Sequence record: PP952733.1
DNA: 64,000 bases
Reading direction: 5' to 3' (one strand)
Source: Escherichia phage vB_EcoM_H12
The position numbers and the translations under genes are program-made. Under the pieces are notes generated by a model. It was not told the DNA's origin, did not search any database, and saw only the letters and a list, made by a program, of their open reading frames with translations. The stretch's first letter is position 1. Every line of letters begins with the position of its first letter. Below, one piece after another: positions 2,680 to 12,223 of the stretch.

Positions 2680-2904
2680 CTACTCAGACTTTTCAGTCTT
2701 CTTATCGGATTTCTTACTAGTCTTCTTCTCAGCTTTCTGCTCAGGTTCCTTCTCAGAAGTTGCCTTGATAACCATATCAAGAAGCTCTGATAAGTCACTC
2801 TTCAGCAGAGTAACAGGCTGCTCATTGTAGAAGTTTTTGTCAAGATAAACTTTGAACTCTTCAATAGAAGGAAATCCAAAAATTGGTACAGGTGTCTTAA
2901 TCAT
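2680..2904 (-). CDS. hypothetical protein (74 aa), lysine-rich C-terminus
   Basis: ORF in track; C-terminal KAEKKTSKKSDKKTEKSE tail. Confidence 0.4.
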   Translation of the reverse strand: MIKTPVPIFGFPSIEEFKVYLDKNFYNEQPVTLLKSDLSELLDMVIKATSEKEPEQKAEKKTSKKSDKKTEKSE

Positions 2905-2980
2905 TACTTAGTTTCTCCATAGGCATCTTTTAAGATTGCCTTGTTAATCATTTCAGCGATTGCAAAACGAACACATACAG

Positions 2981-3484
2981 CTATAATTGTAGGTTGCATT
3001 CTTTACTTACCTCTTCAAGTTTAACCTCAGAGTCCTTAAGTCGTTTCTTATGAACTCTGAATCTCATTAGTGCGATGATGATACCAACTAAAGGAACAGC
3101 ATACAAGTACCAAACATCATACCCCTTTGCAGTAATCTGTGTAATGGTCAAGTCTTGAGCTATGGAACTGATTGCTGATACTGCCAGTAATGTTGCTAAG
3201 AAAAATGCCAGTACCATTACCGTACTTAAACAACCTCTGGCATGGTGTTCATGCTTAATGCACTTATTCTTTTCGTCAACAACCCTGTTATAGTCGTTTG
3301 TAAAGTCTCTGTAGAAAGCTTTCAAGTATTCTTTATTGTATCCTTCAAAGCAACCTGTACCGTACCAATAATCACCACCAAAATGTGCTATGATACCAGT
3401 GTCCCCATTCGGTTTAGTTACTCTCAAAGAGGTGTGATGACGAGTGTCTTGATAATCTATTTTGTATCTTTCTTCGTAAATCAT
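2981..3484 (-). CDS. putative membrane protein (167 aa)
   Basis: Two hydrophobic helices (VMVLAFFLATLLAVSAISSIA and AVPLVGIIIALMRF) in translation. Confidence 0.5.
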   Translation of the reverse strand: MIYEERYKIDYQDTRHHTSLRVTKPNGDTGIIAHFGGDYWYGTGCFEGYNKEYLKAFYRDFTNDYNRVVDEKNKCIKHEHHARGCLSTVMVLAFFLATLLAVSAISSIAQDLTITQITAKGYDVWYLYAVPLVGIIIALMRFRVHKKRLKDSEVKLEEVSKECNLQL

Positions 3485-3699
3485 TTTCTAATCCCTCTCA
3501 ATCGTTTGTTCCACTCAAGGTCAACAAGTCTTTGTAGGACTTTCCCTCTAGGTGTTACACCTCTTAAGTCTGCATCGTAACAATGGTAAAAGTCACCTTC
3601 AGCGTATCTACCATAGCATTTTCTGATATTCTGACTCCTACGATACTGCTCTAACAGGGACAGTTTGTAGTAATCTTCAACTGTAGTTAGTTTTTTCAT
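3481..3699 (-). CDS. hypothetical protein (72 aa)
   Basis: ORF in track, start overlaps stop of upstream gene. Confidence 0.4.
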   Translation of the reverse strand: MKKLTTVEDYYKLSLLEQYRRSQNIRKCYGRYAEGDFYHCYDADLRGVTPRGKVLQRLVDLEWNKRLRGIRK

Positions 3700-3782
3700 T
3701 CTTTCACCACGTATCTTCTCAAGAAAATAAAAAGGGAACTACCTCTCGATAGCTCCCATCATAGTTAATACTGCATATTTGG

Positions 3783-4364
3783 TCAAGAGTATTTTTTAGG
3801 CAGTAATGCACTGCGCTTGTTACTCTCTTCACTCAATAGTGCGATAAATTCATCACCTTTCCCTTTCCACGGACTGAATGTAGGGATGTGCTCTCGGATA
3901 GCCTCAATCACTGTTTTCAGGGCGTTGTTCTTTAACCACCAATCAGATACTGCCGAAGCTACAATGTAGTAAGCACCATCATCTGTGAAGATTGGCTCAG
4001 AGATACATGGTGAAATCATAGTGGTAATGATAGAACCATTATTCATGTAGTATGTTCTTTTTTCAACCTTGTCAAGCAGTTTATGAAGGTCTGCAAAGAG
4101 ACTTACCACCTCTTTATGGTCAATATCTTTTTCAAGATTTGCCCTGTATTTCAATAGTGCAGCATCAACCTCTTTATCATTGAATTTGAAGTATTGAACT
4201 TCTTCATTCACACATACACTGATGTTGTTGGTGTTTATCGTCAATTTGCACAGTTTGACTGGAGAGTTAATGTTGGTCTGAAAAAGTGCTACACAGCCTT
4301 CTACATTCCCGAAATGTTTGACTAATGTAACTTCTGGTTGGATGTGCTCATGTTCTTCTGACAT
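3783..4364 (-). CDS. hypothetical protein (193 aa)
   Basis: ORF in track. Confidence 0.5.
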   Translation of the reverse strand: MSEEHEHIQPEVTLVKHFGNVEGCVALFQTNINSPVKLCKLTINTNNISVCVNEEVQYFKFNDKEVDAALLKYRANLEKDIDHKEVVSLFADLHKLLDKVEKRTYYMNNGSIITTMISPCISEPIFTDDGAYYIVASAVSDWWLKNNALKTVIEAIREHIPTFSPWKGKGDEFIALLSEESNKRSALLPKKYS

Positions 4365-5389: not shown

Positions 5390-5780
5390 AAAAACCTCTC
5401 TCTGCTTGTTCGATTTTTGCTCTTAAAGTTTCGCAATGCTGTAAATGGTAGTTAGCTTCTTGTTCATGTGTTGCTAACTGCCTTTCAAGAACAGTTTTAT
5501 AGTAACCTGCAAGTTGCTCTTTTGTCAATGGGTGCTCTGAAATAATATCAAGTCCACTTTCACCAAGAGGATTGAATTGTCCATGCTCATTGACATTGTA
5601 AGTCTCAAACTTGAACATACCATTGTTCACAGACTCAATAGGTGACAGTTCAACAAGCTCTACAGTAAACCGTGTATACACCTTGTCGCCTCTTGAAACT
5701 ACATTGTTTCCAATGATGCGTACAAGCGAACCATTACGAGTGTATTTAAAAGTCCCAAAATCACTAGCCCAAAGCTTCAT
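5382..5780 (-). CDS. hypothetical protein (132 aa)
   Basis: ORF in track; AAGGAG-like RBS upstream of start on minus strand. Confidence 0.5.
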   Translation of the reverse strand: MKLWASDFGTFKYTRNGSLVRIIGNNVVSRGDKVYTRFTVELVELSPIESVNNGMFKFETYNVNEHGQFNPLGESGLDIISEHPLTKEQLAGYYKTVLERQLATHEQEANYHLQHCETLRAKIEQAERGFYE

Positions 5781-5791
5781 AGTTTTCTCCT

Positions 5792-5821
5792 TAGAAAATA
5801 AAAAAGGCTCCCGAAGGAGCC
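5792..5821 (-). terminator. Rho-independent terminator-like hairpin downstream of endolysin gene
   Basis: GGCTCC-CGAA-GGAGCC stem-loop (5806-5821) followed on the minus strand by a T-run (plus-strand AAAATAAAAAA). Confidence 0.5.
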
Positions 5822-5831
5822 TATGAAGATA

Positions 5832-6296
5832 TTACTTTGGATATACACTGTCAAGATAAATGTCAGCTTCCATTCTACGTCTGTTTTTCAAGCCGTTTGA
5901 AGTGACCTTCTTACCTTTGACTGTAATCTTGTTCCACCACTGCATAGCTTCTGCACAACCTACCTTATTACCAGCATTGTGGCGCTTGATAAATGTAGAG
6001 TCCTGCATAGCTGTGATACCAATGTTATATGTTTCACTTACAAGTGCATCGAACTCATTCTGAGAAGTTGGAGCCTTGATAGCTTTGTTCACTGCTGCAA
6101 CAAACTTTTCAACATCTGCGAGAAGATACTGTTCAGCTTGTTCAGCCGTGATTTTCATACCCATCTTAACAGGTTTACCAGAAATACTGGTTGTCCCATA
6201 CCCAATTGTTGGGATTCCAGCAGAGTCTTCGTAAGCCTCTAACTTAAGACCCTCAAAGAACTTAATGGCTTCTAAACCTTTTCTTGAGAGTTGCAT
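5832..6296 (-). CDS. endolysin, GH24 (T4/lambda-type) lysozyme family
   Basis: N-terminal motif LEAIKFFEGLKLEAYEDSAGIPTIGYGTT matches the catalytic Glu / TIGYG signature of phage lysozymes. Confidence 0.8.
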   Translation of the reverse strand: MQLSRKGLEAIKFFEGLKLEAYEDSAGIPTIGYGTTSISGKPVKMGMKITAEQAEQYLLADVEKFVAAVNKAIKAPTSQNEFDALVSETYNIGITAMQDSTFIKRHNAGNKVGCAEAMQWWNKITVKGKKVTSNGLKNRRRMEADIYLDSVYPK

Positions 6297-7429
6297 TATT
6301 CACCTCCTGCTGGATTAACTGTAACTGTTGCCGCATTAGATGTTACCGAACCACCTGCGCCAGTTACTACACAAGTGTAGCTTCCTGCATCAGCAGCGGT
6401 TGCACCTTCTTTGGTGTAAGTTGCAGTAGTTGCGTCTGGGATGTTTTCCTCACCCTTCTTCCACTGATAGCCTGTTGCACCTGTTGCCACAACATTCAGC
6501 GTTAAGGTCTCACCTTCAGTGATTTCTTGATTGGTTGGCTGTTGAGTGATTACAGGAAGAGCATTCACAGTTACTGTCGCTGCATTAGATGTGACTGAAC
6601 CACCTGCACCAGTTACAACACAAGTGTAAGAACCTGCATCTGCTGGAAGCGCACCAGTCTTGCTATAGGTAGCATTTGTAGCTGAAGGGATGTTAGAGCC
6701 ATCTTTCTTCCACTGGTAACCTGTTGCACCTGTTGCAGTCACTTCCAAGCTAATGCTTCCACCCTCATTGATGGTCTGGCTAGAAGGTTGCTTGGTAATC
6801 ACTGGTAGAGCATTAACAGTAACTGTTGCCGCATCTGAAGTAACACTTGTCCCAGCCTCTCCAGATACAACACAAGTATATGAACCAGCATCGGCAGGTA
6901 CTACAGATTGTTTTGTGTAAGTTGCAGAAGTGGCACTGGAGATGTCCTCACCATCCTTCTTCCACTGATATCCAGTGGCGTTATTTGCGATAACGTTTAA
7001 GGTCAGTGTGTCACCCTCATTAACCGTTTGGTTTGTTGGTTGCTGAGTAATTGCGGGTGGCTTAATAGCATCCTTCAGCTTAGCATTCAACATTGAGAAC
7101 GGCTTAACCCTCGCCAACCACTCACAATACACTGTATCAACGTCTTTACCATTGATGATTGCATACTGTAAATCCATGAAGAAATCAGCAGTCCTCATCT
7201 GTGCACCAACACTGTAAAGGAGTTCATCACTAAAAGGGACTTTGTAGTCTGGTTTGTAGTCAAACTTCTCAACCTCTGCAATATCAGCTTCAGGCCAATA
7301 TGAGCTATAGGTGAGTGGTAAAATAGCTTCTTGATATGTTCTAAAATCATATCTCTTACCAGCCTTTACATTTGCGATGAAGCCCTTCACAAATTCTTTG
7401 AAGTCTGGGTAAGTCTTTGCTTTAATCAT
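6296..7429 (-). CDS. protein with N-terminal domain plus three tandem Ig-like repeats (377 aa)
   Basis: Three consecutive ~85-aa repeats (ITQQPTNQ...GYQWKKDG...AGSYTCVV...ATVTVN); N-terminal ~120 aa is paralogous to the adjacent 123-aa protein. Confidence 0.6.
   Translation of the reverse strand: MIKAKTYPDFKEFVKGFIANVKAGKRYDFRTYQEAILPLTYSSYWPEADIAEVEKFDYKPDYKVPFSDELLYSVGAQMRTADFFMDLQYAIINGKDVDTVYCEWLARVKPFSMLNAKLKDAIKPPAITQQPTNQTVNEGDTLTLNVIANNATGYQWKKDGEDISSATSATYTKQSVVPADAGSYTCVVSGEAGTSVTSDAATVTVNALPVITKQPSSQTINEGGSISLEVTATGATGYQWKKDGSNIPSATNATYSKTGALPADAGSYTCVVTGAGGSVTSNAATVTVNALPVITQQPTNQEITEGETLTLNVVATGATGYQWKKGEENIPDATTATYTKEGATAADAGSYTCVVTGAGGSVTSNAATVTVNPAGGE
6299..7072 (-). repeat. 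Three tandem ~258-bp coding repeats (Ig-like domain units)
   Basis: Direct repetition visible in the protein and in the nucleotide sequence. Confidence 0.7.
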
Positions 7430-7844: not shown

Positions 7845-8435
7845 TTAAGCTTTGGTCTTAAGTAGGTTCTTAAGCTTTTTGAGATTCATGCTCTCGTCAA
7901 ACTTAAAACCAAATCCATTGACATAATCAATGAACTCGGATTTCTTACTAAGTGATAGTGCGTAACTCATATCAAAGTTATTACTTGTTTCTGCGTCTGG
8001 ACTAGAGTTCACATCAAATGAAATTTCTGTAGGTTCTTGTTTGCTGCTTCTCATGTTATCAATCAATAGACAGGTATAGTTTGCTGGATAGAAGTTAACA
8101 CTCCCGTCAACATACCCATACTTATTATTGTGAATGAGGCTGGAAAATACCTTAAGGAATGTTTCTGCGTCGTGGCATACAAGTTTGAATTGACTACATT
8201 CACCAAGAGCCACTAAAGAGTAAGGACTTTCACTATCAATGTCATAATTCGGATTTGATGTTGTAACCGTCACACGCATCAGGTTATTGGCAATAGTCTT
8301 CTGCTTAAAAGAATTTGGAACATAGTGAAGACCTCTGTCACACTGATTAACTAACTCTTTCAATAGGTCGTTTGCATATGGTGAATTAATTGATACAGAG
8401 CCATCACTATTGTAATTAAAACTTACTGTTAACAT
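7845..8435 (-). CDS. hypothetical protein (196 aa)
   Basis: ORF in track. Confidence 0.5.
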   Translation of the reverse strand: MLTVSFNYNSDGSVSINSPYANDLLKELVNQCDRGLHYVPNSFKQKTIANNLMRVTVTTSNPNYDIDSESPYSLVALGECSQFKLVCHDAETFLKVFSSLIHNNKYGYVDGSVNFYPANYTCLLIDNMRSSKQEPTEISFDVNSSPDAETSNNFDMSYALSLSKKSEFIDYVNGFGFKFDESMNLKKLKNLLKTKA

Positions 8436-8662
8436 TTTTCAGTTCTCCTGCGATTTATAATTTTGCTGCAATAGAGAAACGAAGTAAACTCACTGGAAGA
8501 AACCATTAAGTGTTGTTCACTAGATTGAGCCATTGCCCTGAAATACATTCCAGTCAAAGCATCATAGTGACTATTCTTTCCAATTGAGGTTATATAGCCA
8601 TGACTCTTTGCAGTTTGATATAAATCTATAATATCTGCGATTTCTAATTGGGAACTACACAT
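8429..8662 (-). CDS. hypothetical protein (77 aa)
   Basis: ORF in track; GAGG-type RBS upstream on minus strand. Confidence 0.4.
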   Translation of the reverse strand: MCSSQLEIADIIDLYQTAKSHGYITSIGKNSHYDALTGMYFRAMAQSSEQHLMVSSSEFTSFLYCSKIINRRRTEKC

Positions 8663-8805
8663 AGATAATCCTCTTGTCTTCTGTAATTTTGAAAGAACAG
8701 GTACAGACCAATTTCAGAGGATGAATAGTAGAGTAACTCTACCCTTTTTGATTCCTTACAGTGATTGGTATTTTTACCTTTCTTCGGGTTATTTGATTTT
8801 CTCAT
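8644..8805 (-). CDS. small basic protein (about 53 aa; start moved to internal ATG)
   Basis: Internal ATG preceded by AAGGAG; track ORF 8644..8826 starts further upstream. Confidence 0.3.
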   Translation of the reverse strand: MRKSNNPKKGKNTNHCKESKRVELLYYSSSEIGLYLFFQNYRRQEDYLCVVPN

Positions 8806-9507: not shown

Positions 9508-10923
9508 ATGAGCGAATTATTTAAACATGCGCACCTTCATGCAGGTCGAACTGAAAATGGTGCTGTAAACCATACTTCATCAATGTCTGCTCTGGTAGAC
9601 TTCTACAAAGCCGCTGGCTCAAGCCGTAGCAATGTAGAAATCTTACCAGACCTGTTCTACAAAGCTTTGCGTGAGGATGTTGATGTTGCAGTTCGTATTT
9701 TACTGCATATGCGAGATGTACGAGAAGGTATGGGTGAGCGTAAAGCTTTCCGAACTGTTTTACTTCAAGCGATTGAAGATAAAGTTTTAGAGCCTACACA
9801 GGTTCTTCGCATTATGGATAAGATTGCAGAACTTGGTCGTTTTGATGACTTCAAAATCTTCGTAGGTACTCGTTTTGAGACAGATGCCTTCAAACATTTA
9901 GAAGCAGCATTACTAGACCCTGCAACAGCAGGTTTAGCGGCTAAGTGGTTACCACGAGTAAAACCACGCCACAAACAGTTTGTAAAACGTTTCTGTAAGT
10001 TTGCAAACTTAAGTGAGAAGGAGTATCGCACGCTGTTATCTGCACTGTCTGATACGGTTGAGCAAAAAATCTCTGCTAATGAGTTTGGTAAGATTGACTA
10101 CAGCAAGATTCCTTCACTCGCTGCTGCACGTTACCAAAAGCTCTTTAACCGTAAAGATGGGGAACGTTACAAAGCTTACATCGAGTCCCTCTCAAAAGGT
10201 GAGGCTAAGATTAACGCTGGTGCTGTTTACCCATACGATGTGATTAAATCTATCAAGTATGGTAATGCAGATGTTGCTAATGAGCAGTGGAAAGCACTAC
10301 CAAACTGGATGGCAGAAGGTGAGAACATCTTGTGTATGACTGATGTTTCAAGCTCAATGTCTTGGGTGAATCTTGGTTCAATCACTGCCCTTGATATTGG
10401 TGTATCACTTGCTTTGTATGTAGCAGAACGCAACACTGGTTGCTTTAAGAATGAGTTAATGGTTTACTCAACAAACCCTCACTTCATCGAACTGAGTGGT
10501 GATTTACGAAACCGTCATCGTCAGGTAATGCGTCATGTTGAATACGGTTCAACTAACTTACAAGCAGCTTTTGACCGTATTCTTGAGGTAGGTAAGCGAA
10601 ACAACTTGACTCAGAAAGATATGCCAAGTAAGCTTATTATCTTCTCCGATATGGAGTTCAATCAGGTTGATGGAGCTAACGGTCGTACAAACTTTGAAGC
10701 AATTCAGAGTAAGTACAAAAAAGCTGGATACGAAATGCCACAACTAGTATTCTGGTACTTAGCAAACCGTAATGGTACTTGCGAAGTATCTGTTAAGGAT
10801 AATGGTGTAGCAATGGTATCAGGGTTCTCTCCAGCCACTTTAAAAGCTCTGCTTGGTGGTGAGAAGTTTGACCCAATCAGCATAATGCTCAAAGCGGTAA
10901 TGATTGACCGTTACATCTGGTAA
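9508..10923 (+). CDS. vWA-domain protein with MIDAS motif and long helical N-terminal domain; candidate Ro60-like (TROVE-vWA) protein
   Basis: DxSxS MIDAS motif (CMTDVSSSMSW) about residue 277 preceded by hydrophobic strand; about 270-aa N-terminal domain; TROVE-like assignment is inference from domain layout only. Confidence 0.6.
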   Translation: MSELFKHAHLHAGRTENGAVNHTSSMSALVDFYKAAGSSRSNVEILPDLFYKALREDVDVAVRILLHMRDVREGMGERKAFRTVLLQAIEDKVLEPTQVLRIMDKIAELGRFDDFKIFVGTRFETDAFKHLEAALLDPATAGLAAKWLPRVKPRHKQFVKRFCKFANLSEKEYRTLLSALSDTVEQKISANEFGKIDYSKIPSLAAARYQKLFNRKDGERYKAYIESLSKGEAKINAGAVYPYDVIKSIKYGNADVANEQWKALPNWMAEGENILCMTDVSSSMSWVNLGSITALDIGVSLALYVAERNTGCFKNELMVYSTNPHFIELSGDLRNRHRQVMRHVEYGSTNLQAAFDRILEVGKRNNLTQKDMPSKLIIFSDMEFNQVDGANGRTNFEAIQSKYKKAGYEMPQLVFWYLANRNGTCEVSVKDNGVAMVSGFSPATLKALLGGEKFDPISIMLKAVMIDRYIW

Positions 10924-10934
10924 AAAGTTTTAAA

Positions 10935-10970
10935 AAGGGTATTGACAATGTGTTTAATACCCTTTAATAT
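10935..10970 (+). promoter_or_regulatory. Sigma70-like promoter (TTGACA-17-TAATAT) embedded in a 9-bp inverted repeat
   Basis: TTGACA at 10942-10947, TAATAT at 10965-10970; AAGGGTATT / AATACCCTT arms flank the -35 box. Confidence 0.55.
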
Positions 10971-11033
10971 GTTCTACATAGAAACGAAATGAGAGCTTTT
11001 CTAAGATACTGAAAAATATTTTAAAAAAGTTCT

Positions 11034-11062
11034 TGACAACCACTAAAAAATAATGTTAAAGT
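11034..11062 (+). promoter_or_regulatory. Promoter-like element upstream of tRNA array
   Basis: A-tract then TTGACA at 11034-11039; weak -10 (TTAAAG). Confidence 0.4.
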
Positions 11063-11250: not shown

Positions 11251-11257
11251 GTTTTGA

Positions 11258-11330
11258 CAGAAGACCAATTGCAGCAAACTTAATCTTATTCATCTGACAC
11301 GAAATCGGACAAAGAAGAGATTTGGTCTGG
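11258..11330 (+). ncRNA. Stem-closed RNA-like element A (CAGAAGACCAAT...TTTGGTCTGG)
   Basis: Terminal inverted repeat AGACCAA/TTGGTCT enclosing about 50 nt; conserved CAGCAA next to 5' arm; one of four related elements. Confidence 0.4.
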
Positions 11331-11341
11331 TCATTAAGAAT

Positions 11342-11418
11342 TGCGGGTATAGAGAAAGGGCGTCTCACATGTCTCATTAGCATGGTATCGGCAGGTTCGA
11401 CTCCTGCACCCGCCTCCA
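11342..11418 (+). tRNA. tRNA with anticodon CAU (Met or Ile2 type)
   Basis: Anticodon loop CTCATTA, T-arm GCAGG-TTCGACT-CCTGC, CCA encoded; first acceptor pair mismatched. Confidence 0.75.
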
Positions 11419-11424
11419 AATTTA

Positions 11425-11488
11425 CAGAAGACCGTTTACAGCAATATTTATTAAATTTTTAGCGGAAAAATTGAAAGATACGGTCTGG
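11425..11488 (+). ncRNA. Stem-closed RNA-like element B (CAGAAGACCGTT...ACGGTCTGG)
   Basis: Terminal inverted repeat AGACCGT/ACGGTCT; compensatory changes relative to elements A and C. Confidence 0.4.
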
Positions 11489-11501
11489 TAATACTAAACA
11501 T

Positions 11502-11578
11502 GGTTAGGAAGCACATAAGGTATGTGCGGTCGCCTGTTAAGCGAATGGCACAGGGTTCGAATCCCTGACTAACCGCCA
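11502..11578 (+). tRNA. tRNA-Asn (anticodon GUU)
   Basis: Anticodon loop CTGTTAA, T-arm CAGGG-TTCGAAT-CCCTG, CCA encoded. Confidence 0.8.
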
Positions 11579-11587
11579 AATTTAAAT

Positions 11588-11675
11588 GTGTCGTTATCCC
11601 GTAGATGGTAGCGGTGGGGACTGTAAATCCCTTGTCATTGAGACTCGGTAGGTTCGACTCCTACACGGCACACCA
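11588..11675 (+). tRNA. tRNA-Tyr (anticodon GUA), long variable arm
   Basis: Anticodon loop CTGTAAA, about 14-nt variable arm, T-loop TTCGACT, CCA encoded. Confidence 0.8.
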
Positions 11676-11681
11676 AATAAA

Positions 11682-11759
11682 GGTTATGTAGTTTAATCTG
11701 GTTAAAATACTCCCCTGTCACGGGAGATGATGAGGGTTCAAATCCCTTCGTAACCGCCA
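11682..11759 (+). tRNA. tRNA-Asp (anticodon GUC)
   Basis: Anticodon stem CTCCC/GGGAG with loop CTGTCAC, T-loop TTCAAAT, CCA encoded. Confidence 0.8.
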
Positions 11760-11845
11760 AATTATAATAAGTATTTCAAAATGATGTTTGAGAGGGCTAT
11801 TCAGCCCCTCCCTTAAAGAGTTTTTACGAGTATTCTTTAAAGGAG

Positions 11846-11918
11846 CAGAAGACCAAATTCAGCAAGTTACTTAAAATTTCAAGCCAATTTAATTTTGAAA
11901 AATTTAAAACTTGGTCTG
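11846..11918 (+). ncRNA. Stem-closed RNA-like element C (CAGAAGACCAAA...TTGGTCTG)
   Basis: Terminal inverted repeat AGACCAA/TTGGTCT; conserved CAGCAA after 5' arm. Confidence 0.4.
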
Positions 11919-11932
11919 ACTCAACAAATTTA

Positions 11933-12064
11933 CAGAAGACCGTTTACAGCAAAACTTAAACAATCTATTTCTCCGGTAAAGAAAAGGCGAAGGTTCGATT
12001 CCTTCACTCGGCAGATGTCGAGTTGGTGTAATGGTAGCACTTAAGATGATAAACAACGGTCTGG
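11933..12064 (+). ncRNA. Stem-closed element D with permuted tRNA-like module (Y RNA-like candidate)
   Basis: Closing stem AGACCGTT/AACGGTCT; inside, in order: T-arm GAAGG-TTCGATT-CCTTC (11989-12005), 7-bp hairpin ACTCGGC-AGAT-GTCGAGT (12006-12023), D-arm-like TGGTGTAATGGTAGCAC; no anticodon arm or CCA. Confidence 0.45.
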
Positions 12065-12065
12065 T

Positions 12066-12209
12066 AATTATCTTTGTAGATAAGTTATTAAGCTTACTTG
12101 TGAGTATGCGACCACAAAGGGTGAAAGGGTAAATTCTAGATTTAAACCCAACAACGCACATCGCTACAGACCTTAAGCAAGTCTGGGTAGCTTATCTACA
12201 AAGATAATT
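12066..12209 (+). repeat. 19-bp perfect inverted repeat (AATTATCTTTGTAGATAAG / CTTATCTACAAAGATAATT) enclosing about 105 nt
   Basis: Arms at 12066-12084 and 12191-12209 are exact reverse complements; inner hairpin CAGAC-CTTAAGCAA-GTCTG. Confidence 0.6.
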
Positions 12210-12223
12210 TAATGGAAGTGTAG

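What the first reader, a model, noticed from the sequence alone, without database searches (positions are those of the whole stretch)
11258..12064. Four paralogous stem-closed elements with compensatory base changes inside the tRNA array
Elements at 11258-11330, 11425-11488, 11846-11918 and 11933-12064 all begin CAGAAGACC, carry a conserved CAGCAA just after the 5' arm, and end with the complementary GGTCTG(G). Two paired positions co-vary: B and D have ACCGT / ACGGT while A and C have ACCAA / TTGGT. That pattern argues for selection on an RNA stem rather than on a DNA site. The enclosed sequence ranges from about 50 nt (A-C) to about 115 nt (D). They are not tRNAs and are not explained by any ORF.
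Basis: seen in the sequence. Interest (0 to 1): 0.7.

Follow-up and report, generated by a model that had tools for sequence, protein, structure and literature searches.

The report
Class I-like RNAs beside phage Ro60
Four small structured RNAs between the tRNA genes of a Felix O1-type phage are probably partner RNAs of the phage's Ro60-like anti-defence protein, and they carry the same signature as the 'Class I' RNAs so far reported only from social amoebae.

Summary
Four same-strand elements (A 11255-11333, B 11422-11491, C 11843-11922, D 11930-12067) share a lower helix, an AGA/G internal loop, a 7-8 bp covarying helix and an unpaired (U/A)CAGCAA.

A covariance model of the elements finds the same motif beside DUF2828/Ro60-like genes in about 100 unrelated phage and bacterial contigs. 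All 175 hits at E<=1 in three locus sets are on the gene's strand, mostly within 0.7 kb. The stems are 98-99% paired and differ in sequence.

D encloses a permuted tRNA-like domain (V, T, acceptor-like and D arms), which is the YrlA architecture.

The signature (AAG, 6-7 bp stem, UUACAGCAA, CUG, about 60 nt) is that of dictyostelid Class I RNAs. A model built only from amoeba sequences recovers the phage elements (E down to 6e-6).

Best reading: these are Y-RNA-like partners of a divergent Ro60, an RNA family not described outside Dictyostelia. Expression and binding are untested.

The parts
9508..10923 (+). Gene for a 471-aa Ro60-like protein (Pfam DUF2828 + DUF7788, vWA with MIDAS motif DVSSSM at residues 279-284). 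Ortholog of Bas63 gp130. Proposed protein partner of the RNAs.
11033..11062 (+). Sigma-70-like promoter match (TTGACA-18-TAAAGT, TG extended) just upstream of tRNA-Pro. A likely start of the transcript that carries the tRNAs and elements A-D. A second match lies at 10942-10970.
   Evidence: Consensus scan only. The total number of such matches in the region is not above shuffles, so this is weak evidence.
11255..11333 (+). Element A (short type). Lower helix 11255-11258/11330-11333; loop AGA 11259-11261 / G 11329; upper helix AGACCAA 11262-11268 / TTGGTCT 11322-11328; UUG + CAGCAA 11269-11277; variable interior.
   Evidence: Sequence. Fold. R1 41.5 bits, E 8e-8. Dictyostelid-only model R2 11.2 bits, rank 2 in 8 kb.
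11422..11491 (+). Element B (short type). Lower helix TTAC 11422-11425 / GTAA 11488-11491; AGA 11426-11428 / G 11487; upper helix AGACCGT 11429-11435 / ACGGTCT 11480-11486; UUA + CAGCAA 11436-11444.
   Evidence: R1 55.3 bits, E 6.5e-11. Rfam Dicty_Class_I_RNA 20.1 bits, sub-threshold. R2 17.0 bits, E 0.003, best hit in 8 kb.
11843..11922 (+). Element C (short type). Lower helix GAG 11843-11845 / CTC 11920-11922; loop CAGA / GA; upper helix AGACCAA 11850-11856 / TTGGTCT 11911-11917; AUU + CAGCAA 11857-11865.
   Evidence: R1 41.6 bits, E 8e-8. R2 9.7 bits, rank 4.
11930..12067 (+). Element D (long, tRNA-mimic type). Lower helix TTAC 11930-11933 / GTAA 12064-12067; AGA / G; upper helix AGACCGTT 11937-11944 / AACGGTCT 12055-12062; UA + CAGCAA 11945-11952.
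   Evidence: R1 aligns only the 5' part of D (11932-12000; 25.6 bits, E 3e-4 in 8 kb; E 0.03), because the model was built from short elements.
11955..12045 (+). Permuted tRNA-like domain inside D. Anticodon-stem-like helix CTTA 11955-11958 / TAAG 12042-12045; V arm 11968-11984; T arm GAAGG-TTCGATT-CCTTC 11989-12005; acceptor-like 7-bp hairpin ACTCGGC-AGAT-GTCGAGT 12006-12023; D arm GTGT-AATGGTA-GCAC 12026-12040.
   Evidence: MFE fold. Rfam tRNA partial hit, 22 bits, over the V and T arms. After cutting in the AGAT loop and joining the outer ends, ARAGORN calls a cloverleaf tRNA whose 34-nt 'intron' is the closing helix plus CAGCAA. The V-T-AS-D order is that described for YrlA (PMC4201824).

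Best explanation
A-D are four small non-coding RNAs of one family. Each is closed by pairing of its 5' and 3' ends. Each shows an unpaired (U/A)CAGCAA immediately 3' of the 5' strand of that helix.

Proposed steps:
1. (Inferred) They are transcribed with the tRNA array. They are released when host RNases cut out the flanking tRNAs, and their paired ends protect them from exonucleases.
2. (Inferred from association and analogy) The helix plus CAGCAA module is the binding site for the Ro60-like protein encoded just upstream (the Bas63 gp130 ortholog). This parallels the GGUCCGA or GNCGAA module next to the terminal helix of animal and bacterial Y RNAs, which binds Ro60.
3. (Inferred) The variable interior is the effector part. 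In A-C it is short and AU-rich. In D it is a tRNA mimic like YrlA, which could bring tRNA-handling enzymes or an exoribonuclease to the particle, or gate the protein's central cavity.
4. (Inferred) The resulting particle acts in RNA surveillance or counter-defence during infection.

Shown here: the structure and its covariation, the strict same-strand linkage to the gene across phyla, the Ro60 fold of the protein, and the tRNA-like anatomy of D.

Not shown: expression, processing, binding and function.
For: 1. Anatomy. All four elements share the same two-helix, internal-loop and CAGCAA layout.

2. Protein. The neighbouring ORF is a full-length structural homolog of Ro60 with a weak sequence link through vWA_Ro60. 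It is 98% identical to Bas63 gp130. That protein was shown to counter the ppl defence and was noted to resemble Ro60, and the authors guessed that its Y RNAs hide among the tRNAs (PMC11482910). Bas63 carries the same four elements in unannotated gaps.

3. Linkage. Model R1 gives 69 hits at E<=1 in the window plus 75 IMG/VR loci that encode homologs at 39-47% identity (the 5 near-identical loci were left out). All 69 are on the gene's strand, and 39 of the 44 non-window hits with E<0.01 lie within 0.7 kb of the gene. In 80 independent bacterial and MAG contigs there are 76 hits, all on the gene's strand. There are 30 hits, all on the gene's strand, in isolated phages of Escherichia, Listeria, Staphylococcus, Aeromonas, Campylobacter, Bacillus, Enterococcus, Mycobacterium and Synechococcus.

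4. Covariation. 98.4% and 98.7% of cells are paired, and 7 of 7 pairs change on both sides, in the seed and in the independent set.

5. tRNA-mimic members recur, for example in L013, L021, L029, L043, L050, L067 and LeBron. The LeBron member matches Rfam YrlA at 39.8 bits, E 1.6e-7.

6. Adjacency on the same strand is the criterion by which bacterial Y RNAs were found (PMC4201824). A phage Ro60 has been shown to bind adjacent Yrl RNAs (PMC12135203).
Against: No transcript, end-mapping or binding data exist for these RNAs.

gp130 expressed alone from a plasmid, or inserted into T7 without these RNAs, is enough to restore T7 growth on a ppl host (PMC11482910). So the RNAs are not needed for that activity.

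The window's elements fall below Rfam's curated thresholds for both YrlA (no hit for D) and Dicty_Class_I_RNA (20.1 bits against a threshold of 41.5).

The canonical Ro60-binding motif GNCGAA is absent.

The seed for R1 was picked by a motif-plus-stem scan, so its own pairing statistics are biased; the independent sets are what carry the weight. E-values come from a shortened calibration and are rough.

Vibrio phage phi-pp2 has the gene but gave no R1 hit at E <= 1. The motif-plus-stem scan found only one doubtful candidate there, which runs into the gene.
Confidence: 0.75

Rival explanations
1. They act in cis as protein-binding operators on the long transcript. The Ro60-like protein binds them to regulate its own mRNA or the tRNA operon (stability, processing, translation), and they are not released as free RNAs.
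For: In many loci the elements sit immediately upstream of the gene, as a 5' leader would. The tools used here cannot tell a free RNA from a domain of a longer transcript.
Against: In this window they lie downstream of the gene, past two promoter-like sites and interleaved with tRNAs. There are multiple copies, up to about 9 in Aeromonas phage LAh_8. Some members carry tRNA-like effector domains. The dictyostelid counterparts are abundant free RNAs of 42-65 nt shown by northern blot (PMC7919456).
Confidence: 0.1
2. They are processing or insulator hairpins of the polycistronic tRNA precursor: RNase III, E or P entry sites that help tRNA maturation.
For: They sit between tRNAs. The lower helix plus bulge could be an RNase target. 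YrlA-type RNAs can be cut by RNase P in vitro (PMC4201824).
Against: Only 4 of about 25 inter-tRNA spacers carry them. The same elements flank Ro60-like genes where no tRNA is annotated nearby, as in LeBron and LAh_8. The linkage is to the gene, not to tRNAs. The invariant single-stranded CAGCAA and the tRNA-mimic cargo are not explained.
Confidence: 0.07
3. They are decayed or rearranged tRNA genes. D would be a permuted tRNA pseudogene, or a true permuted tRNA matured through a circular intermediate, and A-C would be remnants.
For: D permutes into an ARAGORN-callable cloverleaf. Some GenBank records label tRNA-like features here as 'tRNA-OTHER' or 'tRNA pseudogene'.
Against: A-C have no T or D arm. 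The closing helix and CAGCAA are conserved across phyla while the interiors differ, which is the opposite of decay. The same V-T-AS-D permutation recurs independently beside the same gene family. No BHB-type splicing machinery is known in the host (own knowledge).
Confidence: 0.04
4. They are DNA-level repeats (miniature inverted-repeat elements, recombination or nuclease sites) or transcription terminators.
For: They have terminal inverted repeats and occur in several copies within 800 bp.
Against: All 175 model hits at E<=1 in three locus sets are on one strand relative to the gene. G-U pairs are tolerated. The arm sequences differ between genomes while pairing is kept. None of the terminator-like sites found in the region lies at the 3' end of an element on the + strand.
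Confidence: 0.02

Closest known systems
Dictyostelid Class I RNAs (Rfam RF01414; Aspegren 2004, Avesson 2011, Kjellin 2021 = PMC7919456)
   Same: Both are about 45-70 nt. Both have a 6-7 bp helix joining the 5' and 3' ends, with structure rather than sequence conserved. Both have the termini AAG...CUG. Both carry the motif (C)CUUACAGCAA directly 3' of the 5' strand and unpaired, followed by a variable A-rich interior. Occasional members have a tRNA T-arm-like hairpin (asu_can_20, ppa_can_99).

A model built only from 30 amoeba sequences finds the phage elements: 44 hits, 43 on the gene's strand, E down to 6e-6. It ranks B, A and C as 1st, 2nd and 4th in 8 kb of the window. The reciprocal sequence HMM scores 19 of 28 amoeba RNAs above all 140 shuffles.
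   Different: The phage elements are encoded by phages and (pro)phage-like bacterial contigs, inside tRNA operons or next to a Ro60-like gene. They have no DUSE promoter. They fall below Rfam's gathering score (20-29 bits against 41.5). Felixounavirus copies have an extra lower helix. Some members carry a complete tRNA mimic.

Class I RNAs were reported as unique to Dictyostelia. Their known binder is the RRM protein Rnp1A/CIBP, not a Ro60-like protein. Common descent versus convergence is not settled.
Bacterial Y RNAs YrlA and YrlB (Rfam RF02553; Chen et al. 2014 = PMC4201824)
   Same: Both are encoded next to a Ro60-type gene on the same strand, often several per locus. Both have a terminal helix with a conserved motif near the 5' end. 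One member per locus (D here) has a tRNA-like domain in the order V, T, acceptor-like hairpin, D. A sister element in phage LeBron matches the YrlA model at 39.8 bits.
   Different: The motif is (U/A)CAGCAA instead of GNCGAAN0-1G. The protein belongs to Pfam DUF2828/DUF7788, not TROVE. D gives no YrlA hit. Binding, tRNA-type modifications and a PNPase link have not been tested.
Thermus phage phiLo Ro60 with Yrl1/Yrl2 (PMC12135203)
   Same: A phage-encoded Ro60 homolog has small stem-bulge-stem RNAs encoded next to it. This is the only phage case with binding and structure data.
   Different: phiLo's protein is a canonical TROVE protein and its RNAs carry the CGAA motif. It forms complexes with host PNPase in vitro. 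None of this has been tested for the present family.
Metazoan Y RNAs (Rfam RF00019)
   Same: Both are about 70-110 nt RNAs whose ends pair. A conserved bulged helix near the ends binds Ro60. There are several paralogs per genome (four in humans; own knowledge).
   Different: There is no sequence similarity. Metazoan Y RNAs are Pol III transcripts with La-binding tails, and their binding motif is GGUCCGA on the 5' strand.

Membership tests
Dictyostelid Class I RNA (RF01414) | Length about 42-65 nt | tested here: inconclusive
   Measured from AG to CU of the upper helix, A is 67 nt, B is 58 nt and C is 68 nt. These are near or slightly above the range. D is 126 nt, but D. discoideum also has long members such as DdR-66 and DdR-67.
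Dictyostelid Class I RNA (RF01414) | Short (about 6 bp) helix joining the 5' and 3' ends, conserved in structure rather than sequence | tested here: met
   A 7-8 bp helix is present in A-D. 98.4% and 98.7% of cells are paired, with changes on both sides at all 7 pairs.
Dictyostelid Class I RNA (RF01414) | 11-nt motif CCUUACAGCAA adjacent to the 5' strand, with near-invariant U3, C6, C9, A10 and A11, and unpaired | tested here: met
   B and D read GUUUACAGCAA (5 of 5 key positions). A reads AAUUGCAGCAA (5 of 5). C reads AAAUUCAGCAA (4 of 5). The motif is unpaired in the folds.
Dictyostelid Class I RNA (RF01414) | Conserved termini: AAG at the start and CUGU at the end | tested here: met
   All four have AAG at the start of the upper helix (part of CAGAAGACC) and CUG at its end. 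The fourth base is G (A, B, D) or A (C) instead of U.
Dictyostelid Class I RNA (RF01414) | Score at or above the family's curated Rfam threshold (41.5 bits) | tested here: not met
   B scores 20.1 bits and D 12.8 bits. The best phage relative, L015, scores 28.9 bits. A broader amoeba-only model gives E = 6e-6 to 1e-3 for many relatives, and 17 bits (E 0.003 in 8 kb) for B.
Dictyostelid Class I RNA (RF01414) | DUSE promoter element about 60 nt upstream, with its own transcription unit | not tested
   DUSE is a eukaryotic promoter element and was not searched for. Here the elements lie inside a tRNA array downstream of sigma-70-like promoter matches.
Bacterial YrlA (RF02553) | Encoded next to, and on the same strand as, a Ro60 ortholog | tested here: met
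   The elements lie 330-1150 nt downstream of the Ro60-like ORF on the same strand. This linkage holds in all three locus sets. The protein is a structural homolog of Ro60, not a Pfam TROVE member.
Bacterial YrlA (RF02553) | tRNA-like domain with V, T, acceptor-like (AS) and D stem-loops in that order | tested here: met
   Met for D only, by fold and by ARAGORN on the permuted sequence. The T loop reads UUCGAUU and the D loop contains GG.
Bacterial YrlA (RF02553) | GNCGAAN0-1G motif near the 5' end (the presumed Ro60 contact) | tested here: not met
   No such motif lies near the 5' end of A-D. (U/A)CAGCAA occupies the equivalent place.
Bacterial YrlA (RF02553) | Match to the Rfam covariance model (gathering score 69 bits) | tested here: not met
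   D gives no YrlA hit at E<=10. The related LeBron element reaches 39.8 bits, E 1.6e-7.
Y RNA (functional definition) | Physically bound by a Ro60 protein in vivo | not testable with these tools
   This needs RIP, CLIP or EMSA with gp130 and its ortholog.
Ro60 / TROVE protein family (the partner protein) | HEAT-repeat ring plus C-terminal vWA domain with a MIDAS motif | tested here: met
Ro60 / TROVE protein family (the partner protein) | Match to Pfam TROVE (PF05731), or sequence-level similarity to solved Ro60 chains | tested here: not met
   Only DUF2828 and DUF7788 match. phmmer and profile searches of PDB sequences find nothing. The only weak link is vWA_Ro60 in 5 of 32 homologs, best E 9e-4.
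tRNA (RF00005) | Contiguous cloverleaf detected by ARAGORN or Rfam | tested here: not met
   A-D are not called. D gives only a partial hit of 22 bits over the V and T arms.

The most novel reading that the evidence does not exclude
The phage and bacterial elements and the dictyostelid Class I RNAs are one RNA family. They would be related by descent or horizontal transfer, possibly through giant viruses of protists, which also encode DUF2828 proteins. Their common partner would be a Ro60-like DUF2828 protein.

If so, three things follow. Class I RNAs are not an amoeba-specific invention tied to multicellularity. They would be the Y RNAs of a second, overlooked Ro60 lineage. And dictyostelids should encode a DUF2828-type binder, with the uncharacterised DdR-21 pull-down protein DDB_G0281243 as an obvious candidate to check.

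In phages the same particle would be part of a counter-defence module (gp130 against ppl).
Probability: 0.35. Interest if true: 0.95.

Novelty: new variant of a known kind. Interest (0 to 1): 0.85.

Why it matters
1. It names concrete candidates for the 'missing' Y RNAs of Bas63 gp130, a Ro60-like protein already shown to defeat the ppl defence system. The authors could only guess that these RNAs hide among the tRNA genes.

2. It defines a widespread RNA family that is absent from Rfam. The family is tied to DUF2828, a large uncharacterised protein family found in phages of Gram-negative bacteria, Gram-positive bacteria, actinobacteria and cyanobacteria, in prophage-like bacterial contigs and in giant viruses. 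It implies a second Ro60-type ribonucleoprotein lineage with its own recognition motif.

3. It connects that family to dictyostelid Class I RNAs. These are abundant RNAs discovered in 2004, whose function and key partners are still unknown, and which were reported to exist nowhere else. That turns an open question into direct tests of binding, structure and genetics in a tractable phage and E. coli system.

4. In practice, many phage records annotate spurious small ORFs or 'tRNA-OTHER' over these RNAs.

Tried and rejected
- Rfam at curated thresholds found only tRNAs (and one tmRNA) in the window and in 16 related loci. I first dismissed the sub-threshold Dicty_Class_I_RNA hit as chance and returned to it only.
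- ORF explanation. Small ORFs overlap the elements, and some records annotate them. I rejected this because conservation follows RNA pairing and strand, and because other records leave the gaps empty.
- Hammerhead or other small ribozymes, and group I introns. No Rfam support, and the elements are too short.
- Sequence searches of the protein against PDB chains, with a single sequence and with a profile, found nothing. Only fold comparison showed Ro60.
- DNA-level searches for relatives beyond Ounavirinae returned only tRNA matches. Protein-anchored loci were needed.
- Literature. DUF2828, PF11443 and DUF7788 return no functional paper in the held library. Three papers could not be read: Burroughs and Aravind 2016, the Sim et al. 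2020 review and Avesson 2011. Prior mention of DUF2828 as a Ro relative there cannot be excluded. SEA-PHAGES already labels the mycobacteriophage homolog 'Ro-like RNA-binding protein'.
- Whether Dictyostelium encodes a DUF2828 protein could not be tested. The AlphaFold-database libraries were unavailable. The paper's supplements hold no hit. DDB_G0281243 appears in no other held paper.
- No RNA-repair genes (RNA ligase, kinase, RtcB) were found among the ten neighbouring ORFs scanned in the window.
Full report
**Where the window comes from.** The window is a Felix O1-type phage (Felixounavirus). The region is 99% identical to Escherichia phage ECOH1, and about 300 phage records match it. ARAGORN finds 26 tRNA genes on the + strand between 11089 and 16114. 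The finding lies in the first part of this array.

**Checking the observation.**
- CAGAAGACC occurs exactly at 11258, 11425, 11846 and 11933 on the + strand, with only two other exact copies in 64 kb.
- Each copy is followed 2-3 nt after the arm by CAGCAA, and each element ends in GGTCTG.
- A and C have ACCAA/TTGGT where B and D have ACCGT/ACGGT.
- Folding adds a second, lower helix that also covaries (A TGAC/GTCA; B and D TTAC/GTAA; C GAG/CTC). An AGA/G internal loop separates it from the upper helix.
- The full extents are therefore A 11255-11333, B 11422-11491, C 11843-11922 and D 11930-12067.
- Single-sequence folding energies are unremarkable (z from -0.4 to -2.2), so the case rests on comparison with other genomes, not on thermodynamics.

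**The interior of D.** D contains, in order: a helix CUUA/UAAG, a variable-arm hairpin, a canonical T arm (GAAGG-UUCGAUU-CCUUC), a 7-bp acceptor-like stem closed by a tetraloop (ACUCGGC-AGAU-GUCGAGU), and a D arm (GUGU-AAUGGUA-GCAC). I cut in the tetraloop, joined the outer ends and appended ACCA. ARAGORN then calls a cloverleaf tRNA whose 34-nt 'intron' in the anticodon loop is exactly the closing helix plus CAGCAA. The V-T-AS-D order is the architecture reported for YrlA, the tRNA-mimicking bacterial Y RNA (PMC4201824).

**The neighbouring gene.** The ORF at 9508-10923 (+, 471 aa) ends 330 nt before A.
- It matches only Pfam DUF2828 and DUF7788 and PHROG 850 'RNA-binding protein'.
- It has a vWA MIDAS motif (DVSSSM here, DVSGSM in the family consensus).
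- Sequence searches against solved structures find nothing.
- An AlphaFold model built on 32 homologs has pLDDT 84 and pTM 0.85. Its top twelve Foldseek PDB hits are all Ro60.
- Five of the 32 homologs also touch Pfam vWA_Ro60.
- The protein is 98% identical to bas63_0130.

In the PhageMaP study, gp130 of phage Bas63 was found to counter the 'ppl' defence and to resemble Ro60. [quoted passage not shown] Bas63 carries the same four elements in unannotated gaps, or under small minus-strand ORFs.

**Is the RNA-gene linkage general?** I fetched 80 IMG/VR loci that encode homologs of the protein, 75 of them at only 39-47% identity.
- A simple scan for CAGCAA preceded by a stem of at least 7 bp gave 139 hits on the gene's strand, 52 on the other strand, and 60 on both strands of shuffled sequence.
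- Dozens of loci show 'aaAG[stem]nnnCAGCAA...[stem]CUg' next to the gene, with unrelated stem sequences.
- From 26 short elements I built covariance model R1. In that seed the 7-bp helix is 98.4% paired, and all seven pairs change on both sides.
- R1 found 69 hits at E<=1 in the window plus the 75 divergent loci, all on the gene's strand. Of the 44 non-window hits with E<0.01, 39 lie within 0.7 kb of the gene. In the window only A, B, C and D are hit.
- An independent set of 80 bacterial and MAG contigs with homologs at 33-43% identity gave 76 hits, again all on the gene's strand and mostly just upstream. For 33 of them the helix is 98.7% paired, with double changes at all seven pairs. Covariation is 1.03, against 0.30 in shuffles and at most 0.21 when the partner strand is slid.
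- In isolated phages, hits lie next to the gene in SUSP2, a Listeria Pecentumvirus, a Staphylococcus Sextaecvirus, Aeromonas LAh_8 (up to nine copies), a Campylobacter Fletchervirus, Bacillus MrDarsey, Enterococcus VRE9_1, mycobacteriophage LeBron and, weakly, Synechococcus phage B23. All 30 are on the gene's strand. Vibrio phage phi-pp2 gave no R1 hit at E <= 1.
- tRNA-mimic members recur in L013, L021, L029, L043, L050 and L067. One also lies downstream of LeBron gp53, which is annotated 'Ro-like RNA-binding protein'. There a short element is followed by a tRNA-like one, and the tRNA-like one matches Rfam YrlA at 39.8 bits, E 1.6e-7, below the gathering score of 69.
- The gene usually sits in or beside a tRNA array, but not always.

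**The link to dictyostelid Class I RNAs.** Rfam has no family that reaches threshold on these elements. The best sub-threshold family is RF01414, 'Class I RNA from Dictyostelium': B 20.1 bits, D 12.8 bits, L015 28.9 bits, against a gathering score of 41.5. Its consensus reads GaUcuC-CUUACAGCAA-...-GagAuC-UG.

Kjellin et al. 2021 describe Class I RNAs as follows (PMC7919456):
- They are 42-65 nt long, with a 6-bp stem joining the ends that varies by compensatory changes.
- They have an unpaired 11-nt motif CCUUACAGCAA next to the 5' strand, and conserved termini AAG...CUGU.
- Their function is unknown. They are abundant and developmentally regulated.
- They are stated to be unique to Dictyostelia.

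R1's consensus is AaAaAAG-GuugcUUACAGCAAACU...gcaaCCUGgUa, which is the same signature. To test this without circularity I took 30 dictyostelid sequences from that paper's supplement and built model R2 from them alone.
- On 775 kb of phage sequence, R2 gives 44 hits at E<=1. Of these, 43 are on the gene's strand and coincide with the R1 elements. E reaches 6e-6. Hits include SUSP2 (E 0.0011) and the Listeria, Staphylococcus and Aeromonas phages.
- In 8 kb of the window, R2 ranks B (17 bits, E 0.003), A and C as 1st, 2nd and 4th.
- In the reverse direction, a sequence-only HMM of the phage seed scores 19 of 28 amoeba RNAs above 4 bits (maximum 14.1). The best of 140 shuffled controls scores 2.0.
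- Some amoeba members even carry T-arm-like hairpins: asu_can_20 has CCUAGGUUCGAUCCCUAGC, and ppa_can_99 has UUGGUUCGAAUCCGA.

The window's own copies are weak matches to the amoeba models. The link is stronger through their relatives. Common descent versus convergence on a similar binding site remains open.

DUF2828-family proteins also occur in giant viruses of protists, including Pithovirus, CroV, marseilleviruses, mimivirids and Bodo saltans virus. That is a conceivable bridge between the two groups. I could not determine whether dictyostelids encode such a protein. One of the four proteins pulled down with Class I RNA DdR-21, DDB_G0281243, has no known function.

**Mechanism.**
- Shown: the RNA structure and its covariation, the conserved single-stranded motif, the same-strand linkage to a Ro60-fold protein across phyla, and the tRNA-mimic module.
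- Inferred by analogy with Ro60 and Y RNA systems: the helix plus CAGCAA is the protein's binding module. It would correspond to GGUCCGA and GNCGAA in animal and bacterial Y RNAs and to the CGAA-bearing Yrl RNAs bound by phiLo Ro60. The variable interior would be an effector that gates the ring or tethers other enzymes.
- Inferred from position: co-transcription with the tRNAs from promoter-like sites at 10942 and 11033, and release by tRNA-processing nucleases.
- A caution: gp130 alone rescues T7 on ppl hosts, so the RNAs are modulators or serve another task.

**Rivals.** These are cis-acting operators, tRNA-processing hairpins, decayed or permuted tRNA genes, and DNA repeats. They are weighed in their own section of this report. 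None explains the gene linkage, the strand bias, the unpaired invariant motif and the tRNA-mimic cargo all together.

**Verdict.** The elements are best read as Y-RNA-like partner RNAs of a divergent Ro60 (confidence 0.75). They are members of a large RNA family that I could not find in Rfam or in the held literature outside Dictyostelia, where its counterpart is known as Class I RNA. E-values from the session's models are rough because of the shortened calibration, the R1 seed was motif-selected, and nothing here demonstrates expression or binding.

Noticed in passing
window 12066-12210 (+): An element of about 145 nt lies between D and tRNA-Lys. It is closed by a nearly perfect stem of about 24 bp (MFE -46.9 kcal/mol, z -6.3 against shuffles). 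It has no CAGCAA and no Rfam hit. It is 94-99% conserved in Felixounaviruses but absent from SUSP2 and L008. It could be another structured RNA or an RNase III substrate. Some records annotate small ORFs over it.
   Followed up: partly
window 11757-11848 (+): The spacer between tRNA-Asp and element C folds into three hairpins (z -3.4), including a GC-rich GGGCU-AUUC-AGCCC hairpin. Its function is unknown.
   Followed up: no
L043 3734-3833: One element of the family encloses a complete, normally ordered tRNA (Rfam tRNA 52.9 bits at 3753-3824) between the closing helix plus CAGCAA and the 3' strand. So the module can flank a real tRNA as well as a permuted mimic.
   Followed up: partly
L172 (Aeromonas phage LAh_8) 1440-2961: Up to nine tandem copies of the element lie upstream of the Ro60-like gene, five of them back to back at 2591-2961. 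The annotated start of the gene (2866) overlaps the last copies and is probably too far upstream.
   Followed up: no
L164 (Mycobacterium phage LeBron) 4428-4616: Downstream of gp53 ('Ro-like RNA-binding protein', toxic when overexpressed according to PMC13148394) lie a short CAGCAA element and a tRNA-mimic one. The tRNA-mimic one matches Rfam YrlA below threshold. LeBron also encodes an RNA ligase and a polynucleotide kinase.
   Followed up: partly
L011, L012, L015, L016, L020 (about 5470-5720) and L009, L018, L028 (about 2840-3660): Many loci pair a short element with a long one of 200-330 nt that has the same closing helix plus CAGCAA and a conserved, apparently structured interior. Examples are GGAUCGGUACAGCAAAAAG...CGAUCC and AGAGUGG-gUUCAGCAAAC...CCACUCU. 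These long forms were not modelled.
   Followed up: no
L165 (Listeria Pecentumvirus) 5765-7018; L170 (Bacillus phage MrDarsey); L169 (Enterococcus phage): The Ro60-like gene often lies in or beside tRNA arrays and near RNA-repair-type genes (putative tRNA ligase, metallophosphatase or phosphoesterase, PhoH2 helicase-RNase). This fits an RNA-surveillance or repair context.
   Followed up: no
L171 (Synechococcus phage B23) 4848-4957: A 110-nt 'tRNA-OTHER / tRNA-Undet' is annotated directly after two weak CAGCAA-element hits downstream of the Ro60-like gene. It may be a mis-annotated tRNA-mimic member.
   Followed up: no
Dictyostelid sequences asu_can_20 and ppa_can_99 (PMC7919456, supplement 48): Two published amoeba Class I RNAs contain T-arm-like hairpins (GGUUCGAUCC and GGUUCGAAUCC). 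They resemble the tRNA-mimic members of the phage family. I saw no mention of this in the parts of the paper I read.
   Followed up: no
window 6296-7429 (-): A 377-aa ORF with three immunoglobulin-like domains lies next to the lysozyme gene (5832-6296). L025 also carries a phage-encoded tmRNA at 8236-8685.
   Followed up: no
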